The notes beneath the pieces were generated by a model, which worked only from the letters and a program-made list of their open reading frames with translations, was not told the DNA's origin and did not search any database. A stretch of 64,000 nucleotides of DNA. Origin: an uncultured delta proteobacterium (GTDB lineage: Bacteria; Desulfobacterota; Binatia; Binatales; Binataceae). Numbering within the stretch: the stretch's first letter is position 1; the number at the start of each line of letters is the position of its first letter. The stretch covers positions 640,001 through 704,000 of the forward strand of contig CAWEEQ010000004.1 in assembly GCA_963808235.1 (NCBI GenBank), in the 5' to 3' direction. Positions 15,698-49,611 of the stretch are shown piece by piece. Position numbers and translations under genes: made by a program.

Positions 15698-17185
15698 TTA
15701 CTTGAGCGCGCGGACCGAGAAGCCGCGGTCGTTGCTGCATAGCAGCGAGCGCTTGCCGTCGAGCACGGTCTCGAGCACGACCTCATGGCCCCACAATCGT
15801 TGCAGATACGCGAGGCTCTTTTCCGCGTATTCCAGATGAAGGTCGCGGGCGTCGTGCTGATGCTTCACATAAAGGGTGCGATTCTGGCCGAAGTCGGCAT
15901 CCTCGACCTTGAGCACTGGAATCGAGTTGGTGCCGACGTTCTTGATCAGCGTTTCCTTGACTTCGCGCCATCCGTCGTCGTCGGCGACTTTGCTCACCAC
16001 CAGTTCCTCGCCGCGCGCTTCGTACTCGAAGATGTCCATCTCGCGCATCAGGTCTTCGGTCAGATAGCGGCGCAGGAACGATGCGTCGCGCTCGACTTCG
16101 CGGGCCTCGAAAATCTTCTCGGTGCCGGTCTTCACCGGCGACCCGTCGCGCTTTATTTCCTCGGCGGTGGGTTCCGTGTAGCGCCGGTAAATGTCTTCCC
16201 AAATTTTGAGTCCGAGATGGTACGGGTTGATTTGGCCCGGAATCGGCCGCACGACCTGGTTGTGACGCACGATGAATTCGAGATGCAGTCCCTGGTCGAG
16301 ATCGAGCGATTCCAGAATCCGCTTGTGCCAGTAGCTGGCCCATCCCTCGTTCATGATCTTGGTTTCCGCCATCGAGACGAAGTACTTCGCTTCTTCGTCC
16401 GCGATAGTCAGCAGATCTTTTTCCCAATCGGCAAGAAACGGATTGTGATCGCGGATAAAGAGCAGCAGATCTTCGTCGGGCTCGAGCGGAACTTTGTGGA
16501 AATCGGGAACTTCGATTTCCTTGCGCGCATGGATCTTCTGAAATGGATCGGGCTGTCCCTGCGCGGCGGTCTCGGCGCGATCCAGTTGCTCGCGCGGGCT
16601 CAGTTTCTTGATCGCGAAATTGCGCCGGCACTGCCACGACAGCGCATGCGCCGCGTCGAGAATTCGCTCCACCTTCTCGACCCCGATCGAAGGATCCTCG
16701 ACGTAGCGGCGGACCCGGAGCGCATGCGCCTTGAAGATCTCGATCGTGTGTTCGGCGCGGGTCGACGATTTGTAGGTAAAATTGTTCTTGAAGAAATCGT
16801 TGTGCCCGTAGACGTGCGCGATCGTCAGGATCTGCAGGAGCATCGTGTTGTCGCGCATCAGGTACGCGATCGCCGGATTCGAATTGATCACCATCTCGTA
16901 GGGCAAGCCGCTGACCCCGTGATCGTAGAGCGTCTTCAGCTTTTCGTACGACTTGCCGTACGACCAATGCGGATAGTGCGAGGGCATCCCGGAGTACGCC
17001 ATGTACCCGAGCATCCCGGAGTGATCGCAAATCTCGAATTCCTGCGGGTAACAGTCGAGCCCGAACTCGGCCACCTTCTCGCGAATTTTTTCGTCCCACT
17101 CGACGAGGTCTTTTAGCTCGTAGGGGGCGATTTTGGCCACCTTGCCGACGCTTGCCGCGTTTGCGATTCCTTCGCCCGAGCTCAT
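15698..17185 (-). CDS. spoVR: SpoVR/YcgB family protein
   Basis: GMP.HYPHWSYGK, YEMVINSNP, AHVYGHNDFFKNN, TKIMNEGWASYWH and NPYHLG motifs. Confidence 0.95.
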   Translation of the reverse strand: MSSGEGIANAASVGKVAKIAPYELKDLVEWDEKIREKVAEFGLDCYPQEFEICDHSGMLGYMAYSGMPSHYPHWSYGKSYEKLKTLYDHGVSGLPYEMVINSNPAIAYLMRDNTMLLQILTIAHVYGHNDFFKNNFTYKSSTRAEHTIEIFKAHALRVRRYVEDPSIGVEKVERILDAAHALSWQCRRNFAIKKLSPREQLDRAETAAQGQPDPFQKIHARKEIEVPDFHKVPLEPDEDLLLFIRDHNPFLADWEKDLLTIADEEAKYFVSMAETKIMNEGWASYWHKRILESLDLDQGLHLEFIVRHNQVVRPIPGQINPYHLGLKIWEDIYRRYTEPTAEEIKRDGSPVKTGTEKIFEAREVERDASFLRRYLTEDLMREMDIFEYEARGEELVVSKVADDDGWREVKETLIKNVGTNSIPVLKVEDADFGQNRTLYVKHQHDARDLHLEYAEKSLAYLQRLWGHEVVLETVLDGKRSLLCSNDRGFSVRALK

Positions 17186-18525
17186 GATTCCTTTACCCGG
17201 TCCTTGGCCAGGAACGCCTTGAACGACGGCCAGATGTCCTCTTTGCGTTCGATCAGCACGGTGTGGAAGTTGGGCGCCTGGATTCGGCGGAACACGTTGA
17301 GCATCGAAGATTCATAGTAGCGCGAGCCGAGCGGTTTGATTTCGCCGTAGCCGAACAGGTTGCAGATGGTGGCGAGTTCCTCCGCGTCTTTGAGCGCGGC
17401 GGGATTGTCGGAGTCGAAGTTGTCGCCGTCGGAGCAGTGGAACGCGTACACGTTCCACAAGGACGGATGGTAGCGCGCGGCGATGATCTCCAGCGCCTTC
17501 GCGTATCCCGATGAAATGAAAGTGCCGCCCGATTCACCCTTGTGGAAGAACTCTTCCTCGGTGACCTCGCTGGCCTCCGTGTGATGCGCGATGAAAACGA
17601 TTTCGACGTTGCGGTAGCGGGTCGAGATGAACTGGTAGAGGAGAAAGAAGAAGCTGCGCGCGAGATACTTCTTCATCGTGTCCATCGAGCCCGAGGTATC
17701 CATGATGCAAATGACCGCGGCGTTGGACTCTTCCTTGGTGTCGACTTCGACGTGCTTGTAGCGCAAGTCATCCTGATGGAACGGGAAGCGCCGCTTGACG
17801 CGCTGGAACGCGGCGACGGTTGCGGGAGCGAGCGCTTCCTCATCGGGTGTGCCTTGGTCGAGAGTGCCTTCTTCGAGCGCGATTTCATCCAGCGCGCCTT
17901 CAACGTCGGCGTCGGCGCCGATTTCGCGGTCGGCCTTCGACTCGGCCAGGGCGCGCGCGGCCGCATCGTTGCGTTTGTCCGACGCGAGCATCCGCATCAC
18001 GCGCTGCTTGGCGGTGCGCCGCTTGTCGAGCCGGATGCGGATGCCGACCTTGCGGTAGCCTTTGCGCCGCGACGAGTATTCGGACTGGATTTCGCGCAGC
18101 GCGCGGCGTTCGAGGTTGGGCAGCTCGAGATCCTCGAACATGATCTCGATCAGCTCCTCGAGGGTGACGTCGGTCTCGTAGTAGTCGACGCCGGGACGAT
18201 CGCCGGCATGTTCGTCGCCCTTGCCGAGGCCGTCCTTGCCGGTCTTGCCGACGACCTGGCCGGGGCGGGTCTCGCCGTCGCCCTGCGATGCGCCGGGGGC
18301 GTTGTCGCCGTAGACGAAGCGGTATTCCTTGATTCCGCGGAGCGGAACCTTGATGACGCGATCTTTATCTTTGCCGATGATCGATTCTTCGGCGATTATG
18401 TCGGCGATATTTTCGCGGATCGATTCGCGGACTTTCTGGCGATGGCGCAGCCGGTCGCCGGCTGAGCGATCGGAGCGCTCGGCGTCGGAAATCCGGTACT
18501 CGCGGAAGATTGTGTCGCCGCTCAT
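17182..18525 (-). CDS. yhbH: YhbH/YeaH (DUF444) vWA-like protein
   Basis: MDTSGSM MIDAS motif, ARSFFFLLY.F, ESGGT.ISS, SDGDN and GYGEI; ATGA overlap with spoVR. Confidence 0.93.
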   Translation of the reverse strand: MSGDTIFREYRISDAERSDRSAGDRLRHRQKVRESIRENIADIIAEESIIGKDKDRVIKVPLRGIKEYRFVYGDNAPGASQGDGETRPGQVVGKTGKDGLGKGDEHAGDRPGVDYYETDVTLEELIEIMFEDLELPNLERRALREIQSEYSSRRKGYRKVGIRIRLDKRRTAKQRVMRMLASDKRNDAAARALAESKADREIGADADVEGALDEIALEEGTLDQGTPDEEALAPATVAAFQRVKRRFPFHQDDLRYKHVEVDTKEESNAAVICIMDTSGSMDTMKKYLARSFFFLLYQFISTRYRNVEIVFIAHHTEASEVTEEEFFHKGESGGTFISSGYAKALEIIAARYHPSLWNVYAFHCSDGDNFDSDNPAALKDAEELATICNLFGYGEIKPLGSRYYESSMLNVFRRIQAPNFHTVLIERKEDIWPSFKAFLAKDRVKES

Positions 18526-18590
18526 AGTTGCATCACAGGGGCTGTTTGCGTCGCGGAACTCAACGCACTGTGATTGCCTTGGGCGCGGCT

Positions 18591-18623
18591 CCGGGTTTCT
18601 TCGCTGCGCTCAGAATGACACAA
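18591..18623 (+). repeat. 33-bp palindromic repeat R1 (GIY-YIG-associated family)
   Basis: ccgggtttcttcgctgcgctcagaatgacacaa. Confidence 0.9.
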
Positions 18624-18710
18624 AAAACAGACTCCACTCGGAAGAACATAAAACATCAACCCTGTGGATCGAACTTTCATTCTGGTTCTTTGTGGGTCTG
18701 CTCTGCGTCC

Positions 18711-18743
18711 TTGTGTCATTCTGAGCGAAGCGAAGAAACCCGG
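18711..18743 (-). repeat. 33-bp palindromic repeat R2, inverted relative to R1/R3/R4
   Basis: Reverse complement ccgggtttcttcgcttcgctcagaatgacacaa, 1 mismatch to R1; supplies the nuclease stop codon. Confidence 0.9.
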
Positions 18744-19054
18744 TCTTCGCTCGACACAGCACTCAAGTCCTGCCACGAGGGGTTTTCTTGTTCAATCAGT
18801 GCAATCTTTTTTGACCGCGTTAGGGACTTAATATGTTTCTCGGCTTCAATCGCTGCGCCGATGTCGTTTGTCTCCTGGAAATAGACTAAACGGTCGATGC
18901 CGTAGCGTTTTGTGAATCCGTCGAGGGTGCCGCTTTTGTGTTCGTACACGCGGCGTTCGAGATCGTTGGTCACGCCAACGTAGAGCGTTCGCGAGATGCT
19001 GCTCATGATGTAGACGAAGTAGGACTTGGGGCTCGATGTTCTTCGCGTGGTCAT
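18716..19054 (-). CDS. Small stand-alone GIY-YIG nuclease (YhbQ/UPF0213-like)
   Basis: YFVYIM...LYVGVTNDLERRVYEHK...FTKRY...LVYF...AAIEAEKHIK...KKIALIE..NP.W.DL; catalytic Tyr/Arg/His/Glu present; ATG at 19054 directly adjoins repeat R3. Confidence 0.92.
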   Translation of the reverse strand: MTTRRTSSPKSYFVYIMSSISRTLYVGVTNDLERRVYEHKSGTLDGFTKRYGIDRLVYFQETNDIGAAIEAEKHIKSLTRSKKIALIEQENPSWQDLSAVSSEDRVSSLRSE

Positions 19055-19203
19055 CCGGGTTTCCTTGCTTCGCTCGGAATGACACAACGATCAGGCACGG
19101 AATTGAGGAAAGGCACGATGTCCTCGCTTCGCCTTGGGTCTTGGAGGGTCGATGTTCTTCGCGTGGTCATCCGGGTTTCCTTGCTTCGCTCGGAATGACA
19201 CAA
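19033..19203 (+). repeat. Two identical 55-bp direct repeats (19033-19087, 19149-19203), each containing a 33-bp palindrome (R3, R4) plus the first 7 codons of the nuclease
   Basis: tcgatgttcttcgcgtggtcatccgggtttccttgcttcgctcggaatgacacaa occurs twice with a 116-bp period; degenerate extra copy at ~19117-19137. Confidence 0.92.
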
Positions 19204-19259
19204 AGACCAGACTCGGCTCAGTCAGATTGGTCGTTTGCTTGTTCCTCGGCGTTATTTGC

Positions 19260-21194
19260 TTAATCCTTCCACAAATTGTTGGCTGCGTACTTCAGGACTA
19301 CGTCTACGCAGGATTCGCAGTAGCCGTTTTCCAGCAGGTTTTTTACCATCGAGCTGTACTTTTCGCCTTGCTCCTCGTCGCGGGTGCGGGCCTTGGTGAT
19401 GATGCGTGAGATGTCGCGGACCGAGGTCATCAGCTTTTTCTCGATCGCTTCCTTGAGCGGCTCGTAGCTCTTGTAGCTGATCTTCTCGTTGCGCCGCGAA
19501 GTGGCCCACAGGTACGCGATCACTTCCTGGCGGAATCCGTCGGCGGCCGAGCCGATTATCGCGATCTGCTCTTCGATCGACTTCAGGAACCCTTCGTCCG
19601 GCGACAGTTCCTCATTGGTATTCCGGTCGCGGACGCGGGTCTTATTGACGTAGGCCTCGGCGTGATCGAGGTAGTTCTGGAACAGCGATTCCGCCTGCTC
19701 CTGGTAGGAGTAAACGAACGCGCGGGTGATCTCTTTTTCGAGCAGGTCGAGATATTCCTTGTGCAGCGTGTCCTGCAGGAACTCGAGGTACTGCTTGCGG
19801 GTATCGTCGGGCAGGTCGCCCTCCTTGGTCATCGAGATGAGCGCCTCGCGCACGTTGATCGGATTGATGCAGTTGCCGGTGACGTTGTCGGAGAGCGCAT
19901 TGTCGAGCGCCTTCATGATGAAGCGGGTCGAGATTCCCGACATCCCTTCGCGCTTGGTGTCCTCTTTCAGTTCCTGCACGTCGATCTTCTTGGTGCGTCC
20001 CTTCTCGACGACTTCCTCGCCGTTGTAGAGCCGCAGCTTGGTCATCAGATCGCATTTTGAGGTCGGCTCGAGCCGCGACAGGATCGCGTACATCGAGGCG
20101 AGCTCGAGCGTGTGCGGCGCCACGTGCGCGCGGAAGTCGGAGTTCCTGATGATCTTCTGATAGATCTTCACTTCTTCCGACAGGCGCAGGTTGTAGGGCA
20201 CCTTGACCACGACGATACGATCGAGGATCGCCTCGTTGGTGTGATCGGCTTTGAACTTCTGCCATTCCGCTTCGTTCGAATGCGCGACGATGCAGGTATC
20301 GACGTAGACCATCCCATGCCGCCCCGGCGCCGGAATGACTTTTTCCTGGGTCGCCGTGATCATCGCGTGCAGGTACTCGGTCTCGTTCTTGAAGACTTCG
20401 ATGAACTCGACGATCCCGCGGTTGCCGACGTTGAGCGCGCCGTTAAGCTCGAGCACGCGGGGGTCGCCTTCCGAATACTGATCGAGTTTCGAGATGTCTT
20501 CCGATCCGATCAGAACCGAGGTGTCCTGGTTATTCGGATCGACCGGCGGAACCACGCCGACACCGACCCGGTTGCGCTTGGAGAAGGCGCGCGCGGAGAT
20601 CGGGAATTCCTCGTAACGGTTGTTGAACTCGGATTTCAGGCGATAGCGGCATACCGGGCAGAGATCGCCCTCGATGTGCACGCCGAGCATCTTCTCGAAC
20701 TCGCGGCGCAGATGGCGCGGGACGAGATGCAGCGGCTCCTCGTTCATCGGGCATCCTTCGATCGCGTAAATCAGGCCGACCTGCTCGAGGCCGCGCTGGA
20801 TGCGCTCGACCAGCGAGCTCTTGCCCGATCCGACCGGTCCCATCAGGTACAGAACCTGACGGCTCTCTTCGCCCTTGAGCGAGGCGGAATGGAAGTAGCG
20901 GACTATCTGCGCGATAGTGCGCTCGATTCCGAAAAATTCCTCGGCGAAGAAGTTGAAGACCTTGATCGGCTCGTCCTTGTAGAGCCGCTTGGTACGGGGA
21001 TCATCGGTGTCGGACAGCGGATGCAAGCCCGACGAGATGATCAGATCGTAGATGCGCGCGTGCGAGAGCTTGGTCATGATCGGGTCGGCCTTGACCAGCT
21101 CGAGGTATTCGAGCAGCGTGCCGCGCCATTGTTTCGACTCGCGCGCGGCGCGGTCTTCCTTGATCACTCGCTCGAAGTGGTTGAGATCCGCCAT
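19260..21194 (-). CDS. prkA: PrkA/YeaG family AAA+ protein (annotated as serine protein kinase)
   Basis: Walker A GPVGSGKS, GCPMNEEPL, GNRGIVEFIEVFK, HSNEAEW and EGMSGISTRF motifs. Confidence 0.96.
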   Translation of the reverse strand: MADLNHFERVIKEDRAARESKQWRGTLLEYLELVKADPIMTKLSHARIYDLIISSGLHPLSDTDDPRTKRLYKDEPIKVFNFFAEEFFGIERTIAQIVRYFHSASLKGEESRQVLYLMGPVGSGKSSLVERIQRGLEQVGLIYAIEGCPMNEEPLHLVPRHLRREFEKMLGVHIEGDLCPVCRYRLKSEFNNRYEEFPISARAFSKRNRVGVGVVPPVDPNNQDTSVLIGSEDISKLDQYSEGDPRVLELNGALNVGNRGIVEFIEVFKNETEYLHAMITATQEKVIPAPGRHGMVYVDTCIVAHSNEAEWQKFKADHTNEAILDRIVVVKVPYNLRLSEEVKIYQKIIRNSDFRAHVAPHTLELASMYAILSRLEPTSKCDLMTKLRLYNGEEVVEKGRTKKIDVQELKEDTKREGMSGISTRFIMKALDNALSDNVTGNCINPINVREALISMTKEGDLPDDTRKQYLEFLQDTLHKEYLDLLEKEITRAFVYSYQEQAESLFQNYLDHAEAYVNKTRVRDRNTNEELSPDEGFLKSIEEQIAIIGSAADGFRQEVIAYLWATSRRNEKISYKSYEPLKEAIEKKLMTSVRDISRIITKARTRDEEQGEKYSSMVKNLLENGYCESCVDVVLKYAANNLWKD

Positions 21195-23140: not shown

Positions 23141-23277
23141 GTGAGGGCGCGACGGCATCGAGCTGAATGCGCGCGCCCTCACCCGACGCAGCGTCGGCCT
23201 CTCCCGGGGGGAGAGGCGAATCAGGAAATCGCTTGGCGGGAAGCCCCTTCGACTTCGCTCAGGACGACAGAAAGGAG
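23141..23277. repeat. Composite intergenic repeat (double-hairpin element plus CCTTCGACTTCGCTCAGGACGACA palindrome)
   Basis: ccctcac-ccgacgc/gcgtcgg-cctctccc/gggagagg (23176-23216) followed by cccttcgacttcgctcaggacgaca (23245-23269); modules shared with 31319-31539. Confidence 0.75.
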
Positions 23278-31318: not shown

Positions 31319-31696
31319 GTGAGGACACTGGCGCGACGGCGACTCGCAGGCGAAATCAAAGAAAAGGAAATCGCTTCGCGGAGGTTCCTTCGGCAGGGCT
31401 CAGGACAGGCTCTTCGACTCCAGCAGCTTTCGCTCAGGACGACGGAAAGGAGCGGAGCCCTGCAGGCGATGGCATCGAGGTGGATGCGCGCGCCCTAACC
31501 CGTCGAGTGGGCGCGACGACCTCTCCCGAAGGGAGAGGTTTGCATAACCTCAGCGCGGCTTCGGAGCAGAGCAGAATCTTGAATCGCGCGCCAGAAAACG
31601 CGCGCTGGATAAGGTCCCTCGCCTTCAATCCTCTCCCATCGGGAGAGGGGATGATGCCTCGACTGGTTACGCAAAGGTCTCCGAAGGGAGAGGTGT
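31319..31696. repeat. Cluster of REP-like palindromes (composite repeat)
   Basis: ttcgctcaggacgac palindrome near 31430, double-hairpin element 31493-31539, and cctctccc-atc-gggagagg at 31630-31648. Confidence 0.7.
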
Positions 31697-49433: not shown

Positions 49434-49502
49434 CGCGCTCTCGGAGCCGCTCGGCTCCGCTTGCCCTAAGTGAAGTCAAAGTGTTTTGCGCCGAGACAGA
49501 CT

Positions 49503-49534
49503 CGGGATTCTTCGCTGCGCTCAGAATGACACAA
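49503..49534 (+). repeat. Solo copy of the GIY-YIG-associated palindrome between convergent genes
   Basis: cgggattcttcgctgcgctcagaatgacacaa, 1 mismatch to R1 and followed by a similar A-run; degenerate inverted partner at ~49461-49481. Confidence 0.85.
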
Positions 49535-49611
49535 AAAAAGAGTGCGCAAGCCATGCTGTTCGATGTGCAATGGCTTCCGCACGGTCGAGAAACTACTCGG
49601 GCGCGGCCCGG

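What the first reader, a model, noticed from the sequence alone, without database searches (positions are those of the whole stretch)
18591..19203. GIY-YIG nuclease bracketed by palindromic repeats: candidate REP-like mobile/repeat system without a RAYT
Seen: a 112-aa GIY-YIG gene sits exactly between two inverted 33-bp repeats (R2 18711-18743, R3 19055-19087), forming a 377-bp unit with terminal-inverted-repeat geometry. R3 abuts the ATG and R2 supplies the stop codon. Two further copies flank the unit (R1, R4). The internal hairpin shows a compensatory change (TTCT..AGAA in R1/R2 vs TTCC..GGAA in R3/R4), so structure appears selected. A near-identical nuclease-free copy lies at 49503, and related CTTCG..CGCTCAGGACGAC variants at 23245 and ~31430. 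The ~730-bp insert splits prkA from yhbH. Known: REP/REPIN families are flanked and served by HUH-type RAYT transposases; small UPF0213-like GIY-YIG proteins have no established role in repeat spread that I know of. Inference: this nuclease recognises or cleaves these hairpins and disperses the repeat family, or is carried by it.
Basis: partly seen in the sequence, partly recalled or inferred. Interest (0 to 1): 0.8.

Follow-up and report, generated by a model that had tools for sequence, protein, structure and literature searches.

The report
Ssn nuclease flanked by hairpin repeats
A small GIY-YIG nuclease gene sits between inverted copies of a hairpin repeat that is scattered about 80 times through this genome; this arrangement matches the Ssn single-stranded-DNA nuclease system described in 2025, so it is a real but already known kind of system.

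Summary
A 112-aa GIY-YIG gene (18716-19054, minus strand) is bracketed by inverted 33-nt repeats. Two more copies flank it, and about 80 copies lie elsewhere in the genome. All 4 small GIY-YIG genes of this genome are bracketed the same way, each by its own repeat variant.

Across phyla, homologues carry the same architecture: a (C/T)GTCA tag, a hairpin and then TC. It is present on both sides in 36 of 76 loci.

This is the published Ssn/SRM system (Chenal et al. 2025, PMC11893778). There, SsnA binds such hairpins only as single-stranded DNA and cuts a few bases upstream. The authors already noted the IS-like and REP/RAYT-like layout.

The window protein is 42% identical (E 7e-15) to a Neisseria gonorrhoeae locus flanked by exact NTS repeats.

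Three things appear new here:
- This G·A-mismatch hairpin variant escapes the published search pattern, which matches 1 of 79 copies.
- Within the genus, the prkA-yhbH site is occupied, empty, degenerate or holds repeats only.
- One empty site is nested among occupied relatives, and this genome carries a different nuclease lineage at that site.

This suggests the cassette is gained, lost and replaced. How it moves was not shown.

The parts
18716..19054 (-). ssn-like gene: a single-domain GIY-YIG nuclease of 112 aa. The last ~12 residues are read-through into the 3' repeat.
   Evidence: Pfam PF01541 at E 2.5e-14. 42.4% identity and E 7e-15 to an NTS-flanked N. gonorrhoeae locus. Y15, R35, H39 and E72 are invariant and Y25 is at least 90% conserved among 56 family members.
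19055..19087 (-). R3, the 5' repeat (SRM-like): TTGTG-TCA tag, TTCC..GGAA hairpin, then ACCCGG. It abuts the ATG.
18711..18743 (+). R2, the 3' repeat, inverted relative to R3, with a TTCT..AGAA hairpin. Its TGACA supplies the stop codon.
18591..18632 (-). R1, an extra copy with its T-run. It stands back to back with R2, 87 nt away.
19146..19216 (-). Partial duplicate of the cassette's 5' end: R4 (19171-19203) plus the first 25 nt of the gene (19146-19170).
   Evidence: family D1: 93% identical to 19030-19100
19260..21194 (-). prkA, the upstream host gene.
   Evidence: Pfam AAA_PrkA at E 5e-147 and PrkA at 8e-88
17182..18525 (-). DUF444 (yhbH-like), the downstream host gene.
   Evidence: Pfam DUF444 at E 9e-127
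49436..49541 (-). Solo long-form copy (~105 nt) between two convergent genes. It is homologous to the 3' repeat plus 3' UTR of the paralogous cassette at G000:C4:1749745.
   Evidence: In 9 same-genus genomes these two genes lie only 8-17 nt apart.
23240..23272 (-). Related repeat variant carrying a TGTCG tag.
31381..31445 (-). Related repeat variant carrying a CGTCG tag and a long loop.

Best explanation
This is a member of the Ssn/SRM system. The gene encodes a minimal GIY-YIG nuclease of the Ssn family. The repeats are its cognate Ssn-related motifs: an oriented hairpin with a conserved 5' tag ((C/T)GTCA, here TTGTGTCA behind a T-rich run) and a conserved TC or CC just after the stem.

Inferred mechanism, by homology with the characterised Neisseria, N. 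elongata, N. wadsworthii and Wolbachia enzymes. The protein binds the hairpin only when the TGTCA-bearing strand is single-stranded, as in replication, repair, recombination or DNA uptake. It then cuts a few bases 5' of the tag, which here would fall in the T-rich run.

Shown here by comparison. The repeat-gene-repeat cassette is not fixed. Within one genus the same 16-21-nt prkA-yhbH spacer is empty, occupied, occupied by a frameshifted gene, or holds repeats only. This genome carries a different nuclease lineage at that site from its nearest relatives.

Not shown. Whether the nuclease itself causes these gains, losses and replacements, or the spread of the ~80 solo copies.
For: Same genome.
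- 6 PF01541 hits. The 4 small genes are all bracketed by inverted copies, and the 2 larger GIY-YIG proteins (open frames of 339 and 674 aa) are not.
- The repeat variant follows the nuclease clade. The 658806 and 2935643 genes carry TTCY stems. The 1749745 and 1804104 genes carry TCCC stems and group at SH-aLRT 96. The window gene's clade has 98.
- 79 structure-defined copies, 74 of them intergenic by a crude ORF map. 61 matches to a degenerate pattern against 0 for the reversed control.

Across phyla.
- Of 76 scorable homologue loci (80 fetched), TGTCAYYC lies upstream in the inward orientation in 55, downstream in 39 and on both sides in 35. Of 1115 control windows, 0 have it on both sides.
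- Inverted-repeat score of 25 or more: 38 of 76 loci against 31 of 1115 controls.
- In a separate sample from the window's own phylum, 11 of 11 loci have the tag-hairpin-TC unit on at least one side and 8 of 11 on both.

Hairpin.
- 140 of 184 flanking TGTCA sites open a stem of at least 4 bp, and 114 of those are followed by TC. There are 14 different closing stems.
- On 60 aligned 19-nt hairpins, 8 of 8 pairs show double changes, and 0 of 500 shuffles reach the covariation score. The inner pair, which was not used for selection, is GC 43, AU 17 and unpaired 0.

Identity with Ssn.
- The published NTS is CGTCATTCCCGCGMAVGCGGGAATCYRG, with ssDNA-only binding and a cut upstream. 71% of homologues have SRMs nearby and 42% on both sides (PMC11893778).
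- The window protein matches an N. gonorrhoeae locus at 42.4% identity and E 7e-15. That locus is flanked by exact NTS matches.
- The family's catalytic Tyr, Tyr and Glu are conserved.

Turnover.
- Junction states are given.
- The empty G004 is nested in a 98-supported prkA clade with the occupied G000, G003, G015 and G006.
- Relatives' nucleases at this site are 82-90% identical to each other but 70-77% to the window's.
- Partial end copies occur.
Against: - No biochemistry was done on this protein. Identity to the nearest NTS-flanked homologue is only 42%. The paper shows that stem sequence as well as shape matters, so specificity cannot simply be transferred.
- The published SRM search pattern matches 0 of the 4 window repeats, 1 of 79 genome copies and 4 of 76 homologue loci. 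Membership of the repeat therefore rests on architecture, not on the authors' own criterion.
- The CDD family cd10448 could not be checked.
- Standard DNA folding energies of the window repeats are no better than shuffles: 134 to 197 of 200 shuffles fold at least as well. The hairpin rests on covariation. The outer four pairs of alignment A1 were required to pair when the rows were chosen, so only the inner four are unbiased. Two of those inner four are G·A/A·G mismatches in 50 of 60 rows.
- The turnover argument rests on a 990-nt single-gene tree with many unresolved forks, and on metagenome-assembled genomes. Allele replacement by ordinary homologous recombination would give the same pattern.
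- One repeat pair in this genome brackets a different small gene, so bracketing is not exclusive to the nuclease.
Confidence: 0.8

Rival explanations
1. Selfish cassette. Repeat-ssn-repeat is an autonomous mobile element, and its own nuclease starts its movement. Cuts beside the hairpins in single-stranded DNA would lead to precise excision, or to break-induced copying from another copy. Solo repeats and truncated ends would be abortive products or landing sites.
For: - Empty, occupied, frameshifted and repeat-only states occur at one site within a genus.
- An empty site is nested among occupied relatives.
- A different nuclease lineage sits at the same site in G000.
- At the one alignable junction there is no target duplication and the original spacer is intact beside the insert (L083 against L084).
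- Tandem truncated end copies occur in G000, in its relatives, in Planktothrix and in Sinorhizobium.
- The closest homologues mix phyla.
Against: - GIY-YIG enzymes hydrolyse DNA and form no covalent intermediate, so they cannot rejoin strands by themselves (established knowledge).
- No excised form or new insertion was observed. The laid metagenome contigs gave nothing usable.
- Homologous recombination between strains explains presence and absence equally well.
- Most solo copies are single, not paired.
Confidence: 0.3
2. Domesticated host system, as proposed for Neisseria. The nuclease restricts or trims incoming or exposed single-stranded DNA that carries the repeats. This would modulate recombination around repeat-marked genes, and the repeats would be kept for that role.
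For: - In N. meningitidis, deleting ssnA raised transformation with NTS-bearing DNA about 5-fold. Mutating the NTS removed the effect (PMC11893778).
- The copies here are oriented. The tag side faces a gene's 3' end in 56 of 74 intergenic copies (binomial p 1e-5).
- A repeat pair brackets a small membrane-protein gene, as NTS clusters do in Neisseria.
- ComEC and DprA homologues are present.
Against: - ComEC and DprA also ring in 10-11 of 14 control genomes, so they say little.
- Two of the 7 occupied same-genus genomes carry frameshifted genes, and 3 of the 14 genomes compared have no trace at this site. Four diverged paralogues sit in one genome. This fits dispensable, turning-over elements better than a fixed host function.
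- Competence of this uncultured organism is unknown.
Confidence: 0.3
3. The repeats are an independent REP-like family moved by some other enzyme. The nuclease gene merely inserts into them or hitch-hikes between them.
For: - There are about 80 copies against 4 genes.
- Solo copies sit where relatives have 8-17-nt spacers.
- A pair brackets an unrelated gene.
Against: - No Y1/RAYT transposase was found in the 93%-complete assembly.
- The tag-hairpin-TC unit accompanies the gene across more than 10 phyla while its stem sequence changes. The two sides of one gene match in 23 of 30 typed cases.
- Homologues bind their own flanking repeat with nanomolar affinity (PMC11893778).
Confidence: 0.08
4. 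The hairpins act in RNA, as terminators, UTR stabilisers or a small RNA, and not in DNA.
For: - The copies are intergenic and oriented relative to gene ends.
- A T-rich run adjoins the tag. There are at least 5 T in the 8 nt before GTGTCA in 61 of 79 copies.
Against: - No Rfam family matches, even at E up to 1.
- Only 1 G-U pair occurs among 480 cells of the covariation table, which is unusual for an RNA helix.
- The T-run precedes the hairpin and does not follow it.
- SsnA does not bind RNA of the same sequence (PMC11893778).
Confidence: 0.03

Closest known systems
Ssn nucleases with NTS/SRM repeats (Chenal et al., Nat Commun 2025, PMC11893778)
   Same: - A single-domain GIY-YIG protein of about 95-110 aa.
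- The gene is flanked on both sides by inverted, oriented hairpin repeats carrying a (C/T)GTCA tag 5' of the stem and a C just 3' of it.
- Tens to hundreds of further copies lie in intergenic DNA.
- Each paralogue has its own repeat variant.
- Sequence homology to an NTS-flanked Neisseria gene.
   Different: - The stem here has two conserved G·A/A·G mismatches and a GNA loop (TTCYGAGCGAAGCGARGAA).
- The published SRM pattern misses it: 1 of 79 copies match.
- The base run 5' of the tag is conserved and T-rich, whereas in Neisseria it is variable.
- The host is an uncultured soil bacterium, so no activity or phenotype is known.
REP/REPIN repeats with RAYT transposases
   Same: A gene present in only a few copies per genome (here four diverged paralogues) is flanked by inverted copies of a tagged palindromic repeat that populates intergenic DNA. 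Each gene class has its own repeat class.
   Different: - The enzyme is a GIY-YIG hydrolase, not an HUH Y1 transposase, and none of the latter was found.
- The tag is TGTCA, not GTAG or CGTC. In a term search of PMC3733652, TGTCA and TGACA had no occurrence.
IS200/IS605 insertion sequences
   Same: Hairpin ends are recognised as single-stranded DNA. There is no target duplication. Excision may be seamless.
   Different: There is no TnpA and no covalent strand transfer. The ends here are true inverted repeats.
GIY-YIG homing endonucleases (I-TevI type)
   Same: The same catalytic fold. The presence/absence, degeneration and loss pattern resembles a homing cycle.
   Different: - There is no DNA-binding domain.
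- TIGR01453 scores 18.5 bits against a cut-off of 56.
- Homologues do not cut double-stranded DNA.
Bacterial Slx1-like/UPF0213 proteins (PDB 1zg2, 1ywl)
   Same: The nearest solved structures by sequence, at E 2.7e-7 and 4.7e-5. They are also minimal GIY-YIG domains.
   Different: - This clade has an invariant C-terminal N within a conserved NPxWxDL motif, which is not aligned in 1zg2.
- The 2006 survey read those proteins as vertically inherited repair enzymes (PMC1564403).

Membership tests
Ssn/SRM system | Single-domain GIY-YIG protein of about 94 aa | tested here: met
   The only Pfam hit is GIY-YIG, over residues 12-83 of 112. The family core ends near residue 98.
Ssn/SRM system | Homology to characterised SsnA (the paper's criterion is E < 1e-10) | tested here: met
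   tblastn gives 42.4% identity and E 7e-15 to an N. gonorrhoeae locus that is flanked by exact NTS matches. This is a proxy: the N. meningitidis protein itself was not at hand.
Ssn/SRM system | Assignment to CDD cd10448 | not testable with these tools
Ssn/SRM system | Oriented hairpin repeats with a conserved 5' tag and a 3' C on both sides of the gene | tested here: met
Ssn/SRM system | Match to the published degenerate SRM search sequence | tested here: not met
   0 of 4 window repeats and 1 of 79 genome copies match. The same pattern does find the NTS copies in the Neisseria locus.
Ssn/SRM system | Catalytic Tyr, Tyr and Glu (Y6, Y17 and E64 in N. meningitidis) | tested here: met
   Y15 and E72 are invariant and Y25 is at least 90% conserved in 56 sequences. 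The mapping to the Neisseria numbering is inferred.
Ssn/SRM system | Cleaves only single-stranded DNA next to the repeat | not testable with these tools
   This needs purified protein.
REP/RAYT | The flanked gene is an HUH Y1 transposase | tested here: not met
   The flanked gene is GIY-YIG. PF01797 has no hit in the genome.
REP/RAYT | GTAG or CGTC tag on the palindrome | tested here: not met
   The tag is TGTCA and is invariant in 60 of 60 aligned copies. The rows were picked by a TGTCA match.
GIY-YIG homing endonuclease | Nuclease domain joined to a DNA-binding domain; matches TIGR01453 | tested here: not met
   18.5 bits against a cut-off of 56.05. The protein has a single domain.
Transposase-type IS or MITE | Target-site duplication at the ends | tested here: not met
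   At the one alignable junction (L083 empty against L084 occupied), the insert lies between the prkA TGA and an intact spacer, with no duplication.

The most novel reading that the evidence does not exclude
Repeat-ssn-repeat cassettes are active mobile elements of a kind not yet demonstrated. They would move without a transposase, through single-strand cuts made by their own minimal nuclease beside hairpin ends. They would excise seamlessly, re-invade the same short intergenic spacers, and shed solo hairpins and truncated ends as by-products. The G·A-mismatch hairpin variant seen here marks a large soil and sediment branch of the family that the published survey pattern does not detect.
Probability: 0.3. 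Interest if true: 0.75.

Novelty: new member of a known kind. Interest (0 to 1): 0.4.

Why it matters
The Ssn family was described only in 2025. Its role outside Neisseria, and the origin of its repeats, are still open. This locus adds comparative evidence that the cassette comes and goes at a fixed site within one genus and can be replaced by another lineage. That bears on the authors' open question of whether it is an IS-like element or a domesticated one.

The locus also shows that a widespread hairpin variant is invisible to the published search pattern. The reported share of homologues with flanking repeats (71%) is therefore probably an underestimate for soil phyla.

The four paralogue-repeat pairs in one genome would be a natural test set for the specificity of single-stranded-DNA cutting enzymes.

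Tried and rejected
- Rfam on 18000-19800 at E up to 1 gave no match.
- Nine literature searches found nothing relevant. These covered GIY-YIG with REP, MITE, TIR, RAYT, COG2827 and UPF0213, and repeat strings used as search words. Only the tenth, GIY-YIG since 2021, listed the Ssn paper.
- Metagenome contigs were laid on 17900-19900. They are short unitigs and none spans the locus. One 21-nt-sided joint (18627 to 19262) is too short to trust. The lack of cover over the gene body is no finding. The two repeat bins have far higher summed depth than their flanks in run X4, which only says the repeat is common in soil data.
- A strict degenerate repeat pattern was run across 120 genomes of the phylum. 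It hit only 4 of them, although 37 carry a homologue. The pattern is too narrow, so this is not a co-occurrence test.
- GC skew of contig C4 shows no clear replichores, so no leading/lagging-strand test was possible.
- I looked for terminator hairpins upstream of the T-run. By eye the flanks are pyrimidine-rich and show no consistent stem, so I dropped this.
- DNA folding energies are not better than shuffles.
- ComEC and DprA are present but uninformative.
- The protein tree of 84 sequences over 101 columns is mostly unresolved. I make no claim of transfer from it beyond the window's own clade.
- Structure prediction, fold search and complex prediction were not run. Sequence links to 1zg2/1ywl and to the Neisseria homologue seemed sufficient.
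- The solo copy at 49.5 kb could not be given exact insertion borders, because the rest of that spacer also differs from relatives.

Full report
**The observation.** The four 33-nt repeat copies lie at 18591-18623, 18711-18743, 19055-19087 and 19171-19203. A fifth copy is at 49502-49531. A search with the 30-nt core finds 5 matches at up to 3 mismatches, against none in 100 shuffles.

The 112-aa ORF on the minus strand (18716-19054) is a GIY-YIG domain protein (Pfam E 2.5e-14). R3 touches its ATG, and its stop codon is the TGA inside the TGACA of R2.

R4 is part of a 71-nt duplicate that also copies the first 25 nt of the gene. The insert separates prkA from a DUF444/yhbH gene by 734 nt, with SpoVR downstream.

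**The repeat family in this genome.**
- The 30-mer has 57 matches at up to 6 substitutions.
- A structural definition (GTGTCAYYC, a hairpin closed by at least 4 pairs, then TC, CC or AC) finds 79 copies. By a crude ORF map, 74 of them are intergenic.
- Most solo copies are longer than 33 nt. One class of about 115 nt is homologous to the whole 3' repeat plus 3' UTR of a paralogous cassette. A second class is about 75 nt.
- A T-rich run precedes the tag. There are at least 5 T in the preceding 8 nt in 61 of 79 copies.
- The tag side faces the 3' end of a neighbouring gene in 56 of 74 copies (p about 1e-5).

**All small GIY-YIG genes here are bracketed.** The genome has 6 GIY-YIG domain hits. 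The two larger GIY-YIG proteins (open frames of 339 and 674 aa) are not bracketed.

All 4 small genes lie between inverted copies of the repeat, each with its own variant. The stems are TTCC/TTCT in the window gene, TTCT with an extra A at C4:2935643, and TCCC at C4:1749745 and C4:1804104. The two TCCC genes group together (SH-aLRT 96) and the two TTCY genes fall in another clade (98).

The cassette at 1749745 carries three tandem copies of its 5' end and three of its 3' end, each with a piece of the gene.

**The association holds across phyla.** A scan of one genome per species found 504 confirmed relatives among 599 candidate stretches, and the best 80 were kept. Of these, 76 had enough flank to score.
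- TGTCAYYC lies upstream, pointing inward, in 55 loci. It lies downstream in 39 and on both sides in 35. None of 1115 control windows in the same loci has it on both sides.
- The best inverted-repeat score across the gene reaches 25 in 38 of 76 loci, against 31 of 1115 controls.
- In a second, independent sample from the window's own phylum, 37 of 120 other genomes hold a homologue. Of the 11 loci returned, 11 carry the unit on at least one side and 8 on both.
- Complete records of isolates show the same thing, including truncated tandem ends. These are a Planktothrix agardhii plasmid, where the gene sits between an MmeI-type enzyme and DISARM drmA, and a Sinorhizobium meliloti replicon.
- The protein family is large: 13,087 cluster representatives at E up to 0.001 and 3,778 at 1e-10.
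- 24 of the best 150 family members end in peptides that are read-through translations of the 3' repeat. About 0.6 are expected after shuffling.

**Anatomy of the repeat.** What is conserved is a 5' tag, a hairpin of variable sequence and loop length, and TC after the stem.
- Of 184 TGTCA sites flanking the genes, 140 open a perfect stem of at least 4 bp. Of those, 114 are followed by TC, and 14 different closing stems are used. Elsewhere in the same loci the figures are 86 of 288 and 34.
- On 60 aligned 19-nt hairpins, every one of the 8 pairs shows changes on both sides. No shuffle of 500 reaches the covariation score, and sliding the partner collapses pairing.
- The outer four pairs were required to pair when I chose the rows, so they are biased. 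The inner pairs were not. One inner pair is GC in 43 rows, AU in 17 and never unpaired. Two others are G·A/A·G in 50 rows and Watson-Crick in 10.
- Only one G-U pair occurs in 480 cells, and the mismatches are purine-purine on the tag strand only. This points to one DNA strand being the functional one.
- Against this, nearest-neighbour DNA energies of the window repeats are no better than shuffles. Those parameters give no credit to sheared G·A pairs or GNA loops. That remark is from my own knowledge.

**What it is.** Nine literature searches found nothing. The tenth listed Chenal et al., Nat Commun 2025 (PMC11893778). I read its abstract, Results parts 1-2 of 4, the section on the family, the Discussion and the Methods paragraph on the search pattern. 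[quoted passage not shown]

The paper reports the following.
- The Neisseria NTS is CGTCATTCCCGCGMAVGCGGGAATCYRG.
- Degenerate 'Ssn-related motifs' flank ssnA homologues in many phyla. 71% of homologues have at least one nearby and 42% have them on both sides.
- SsnA is a 94-aa single-domain GIY-YIG protein (cd10448). It binds the hairpin only as single-stranded DNA, on one strand only, with nanomolar affinity, and cuts a few bases upstream.
- Cleavage depends most on the three bases before the palindrome. Binding depends most on the C just after it.
- Three further homologues cut next to their own repeats.
- The authors point out that NTS-ssnA-NTS looks like an insertion sequence, and they compare it with REP/RAYT.

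The window's unit has the same plan: tag, hairpin, then C. The window protein matches an N. gonorrhoeae locus at 42.4% identity and E 7e-15. That locus is surrounded by exact NTS matches. The catalytic Tyr, Tyr and Glu are conserved in the family alignment. I therefore file the finding as a member of that system. CDD membership and activity could not be tested.

**What seems to be added here.**

First, the published search pattern does not see this variant. It matches none of the 4 window repeats and 1 of 79 genome copies. It matches 4 of 76 homologue loci, whereas the structural definition finds 58, with 36 on both sides. The pattern did find the NTS copies in the Neisseria locus, so my transcription works. 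The strings TCTGAGCG and TCCGAGCG do not occur in the paper's supplementary text files.

Second, the prkA-yhbH junction was compared in relatives.
- Four class-level relatives have spacers of 12-32 nt.
- Fourteen same-genus genomes, including this one, were compared.
  - Three have clean 16-21-nt spacers (G012, G004, G011).
  - One has a single repeat (G013).
  - One has a degenerate pair (G007).
  - One has three repeats and no gene (G016).
  - One has a 135-nt spacer without repeats (G014).
  - Seven hold the gene (G000, G008, G015, G006, G003, G017, G001).
- In G017 and G001 the gene is in two or three frames.
- In G015 the insert lies exactly between the prkA stop codon and the intact ancestral spacer seen in G004, with no duplication.
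- On a 990-nt prkA tree, the empty G004 is nested in a 98-supported clade with the occupied G000, G003, G015 and G006.
- The nucleases of four relatives at this site are 82-90% identical to each other. They are only 70-77% identical to the window's, no closer than the window genome's paralogue elsewhere.
- The six relatives share a downstream segment that G000 lacks, while G000 has its partial copy upstream.

Together this points to loss or seamless removal in some lines, and to replacement by another lineage in G000. Ordinary homologous exchange of alleles could do the same, and the tree is short with several open forks.

**Mechanism: shown and inferred.**
- Shown here: the association, the conserved hairpin, the intact catalytic residues and the turnover at one site.
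- Shown elsewhere, for homologues: single-strand-specific binding and cutting.
- Inferred: that this protein cuts in the T-rich run 5' of TGTCA on the tag strand.
- Open: whether that cut drives excision, copying or spread of the repeats, or serves the host as in Neisseria.

No RAYT-type transposase was found in this 93%-complete assembly.

**Verdict.** The interest lies in the comparative evidence for cassette turnover and in the undetected hairpin variant, not in a new kind of system.

Noticed in passing
G000:C4:570610-571124 (outside the window): A pair of inward-facing TCCC-type repeats, with about 85 nt of matching arms, brackets a small ORF that looks like a hydrophobic membrane protein by eye. 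It is not a nuclease. This resembles the NTS-gene-NTS layout reported around membrane-protein genes in Neisseria.
   Followed up: partly
G000:C4:1002099-1002828 (outside the window): A gene-less repeat pair (a short 5' unit, about 45 nt, then a long 3' unit) is tandemly triplicated with a 283-nt period.
   Followed up: no
G000 contig C4, 2.0-3.85 Mb: Repeat copies are strand-biased here: 22 of 29 have the tag on the + strand (p 0.008). Over the whole genome the split is 50 + to 29 -. GC skew gives no clear replichores to relate this to.
   Followed up: partly
window 49541-49600; loci L107, L114, L116, L117, L121: The same short spacer between two convergent genes is a hot spot in relatives for other inserts. 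These are a small ORF and a second repeat family built on CCTAACCCC...CTTCCC...GGGAAGGGG hairpins, which also occurs beside many Ssn-type repeats in G000.
   Followed up: no
L136 (Planktothrix agardhii plasmid p1, 17650-20316): The homologue, with its repeat arrays, sits between a type IIL MmeI restriction-modification gene and the DISARM helicase drmA, that is, inside a defence island.
   Followed up: no
window 15698-21194: prkA, DUF444/yhbH and spoVR form the usual three-gene cluster on the minus strand. In this genome the cassette interrupts the prkA-yhbH spacer, so any co-transcription must pass through about 730 nt of repeats and an extra gene.
   Followed up: no
G000:C4:1749745 and C4:1804104 loci; L088; L136: Short tandem runs of the tag with its T-rich leader alone (CTTTGTGTCA-like units, about 16 nt apart) precede full repeats, as if many truncated 5' ends were stacked.
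   Followed up: no
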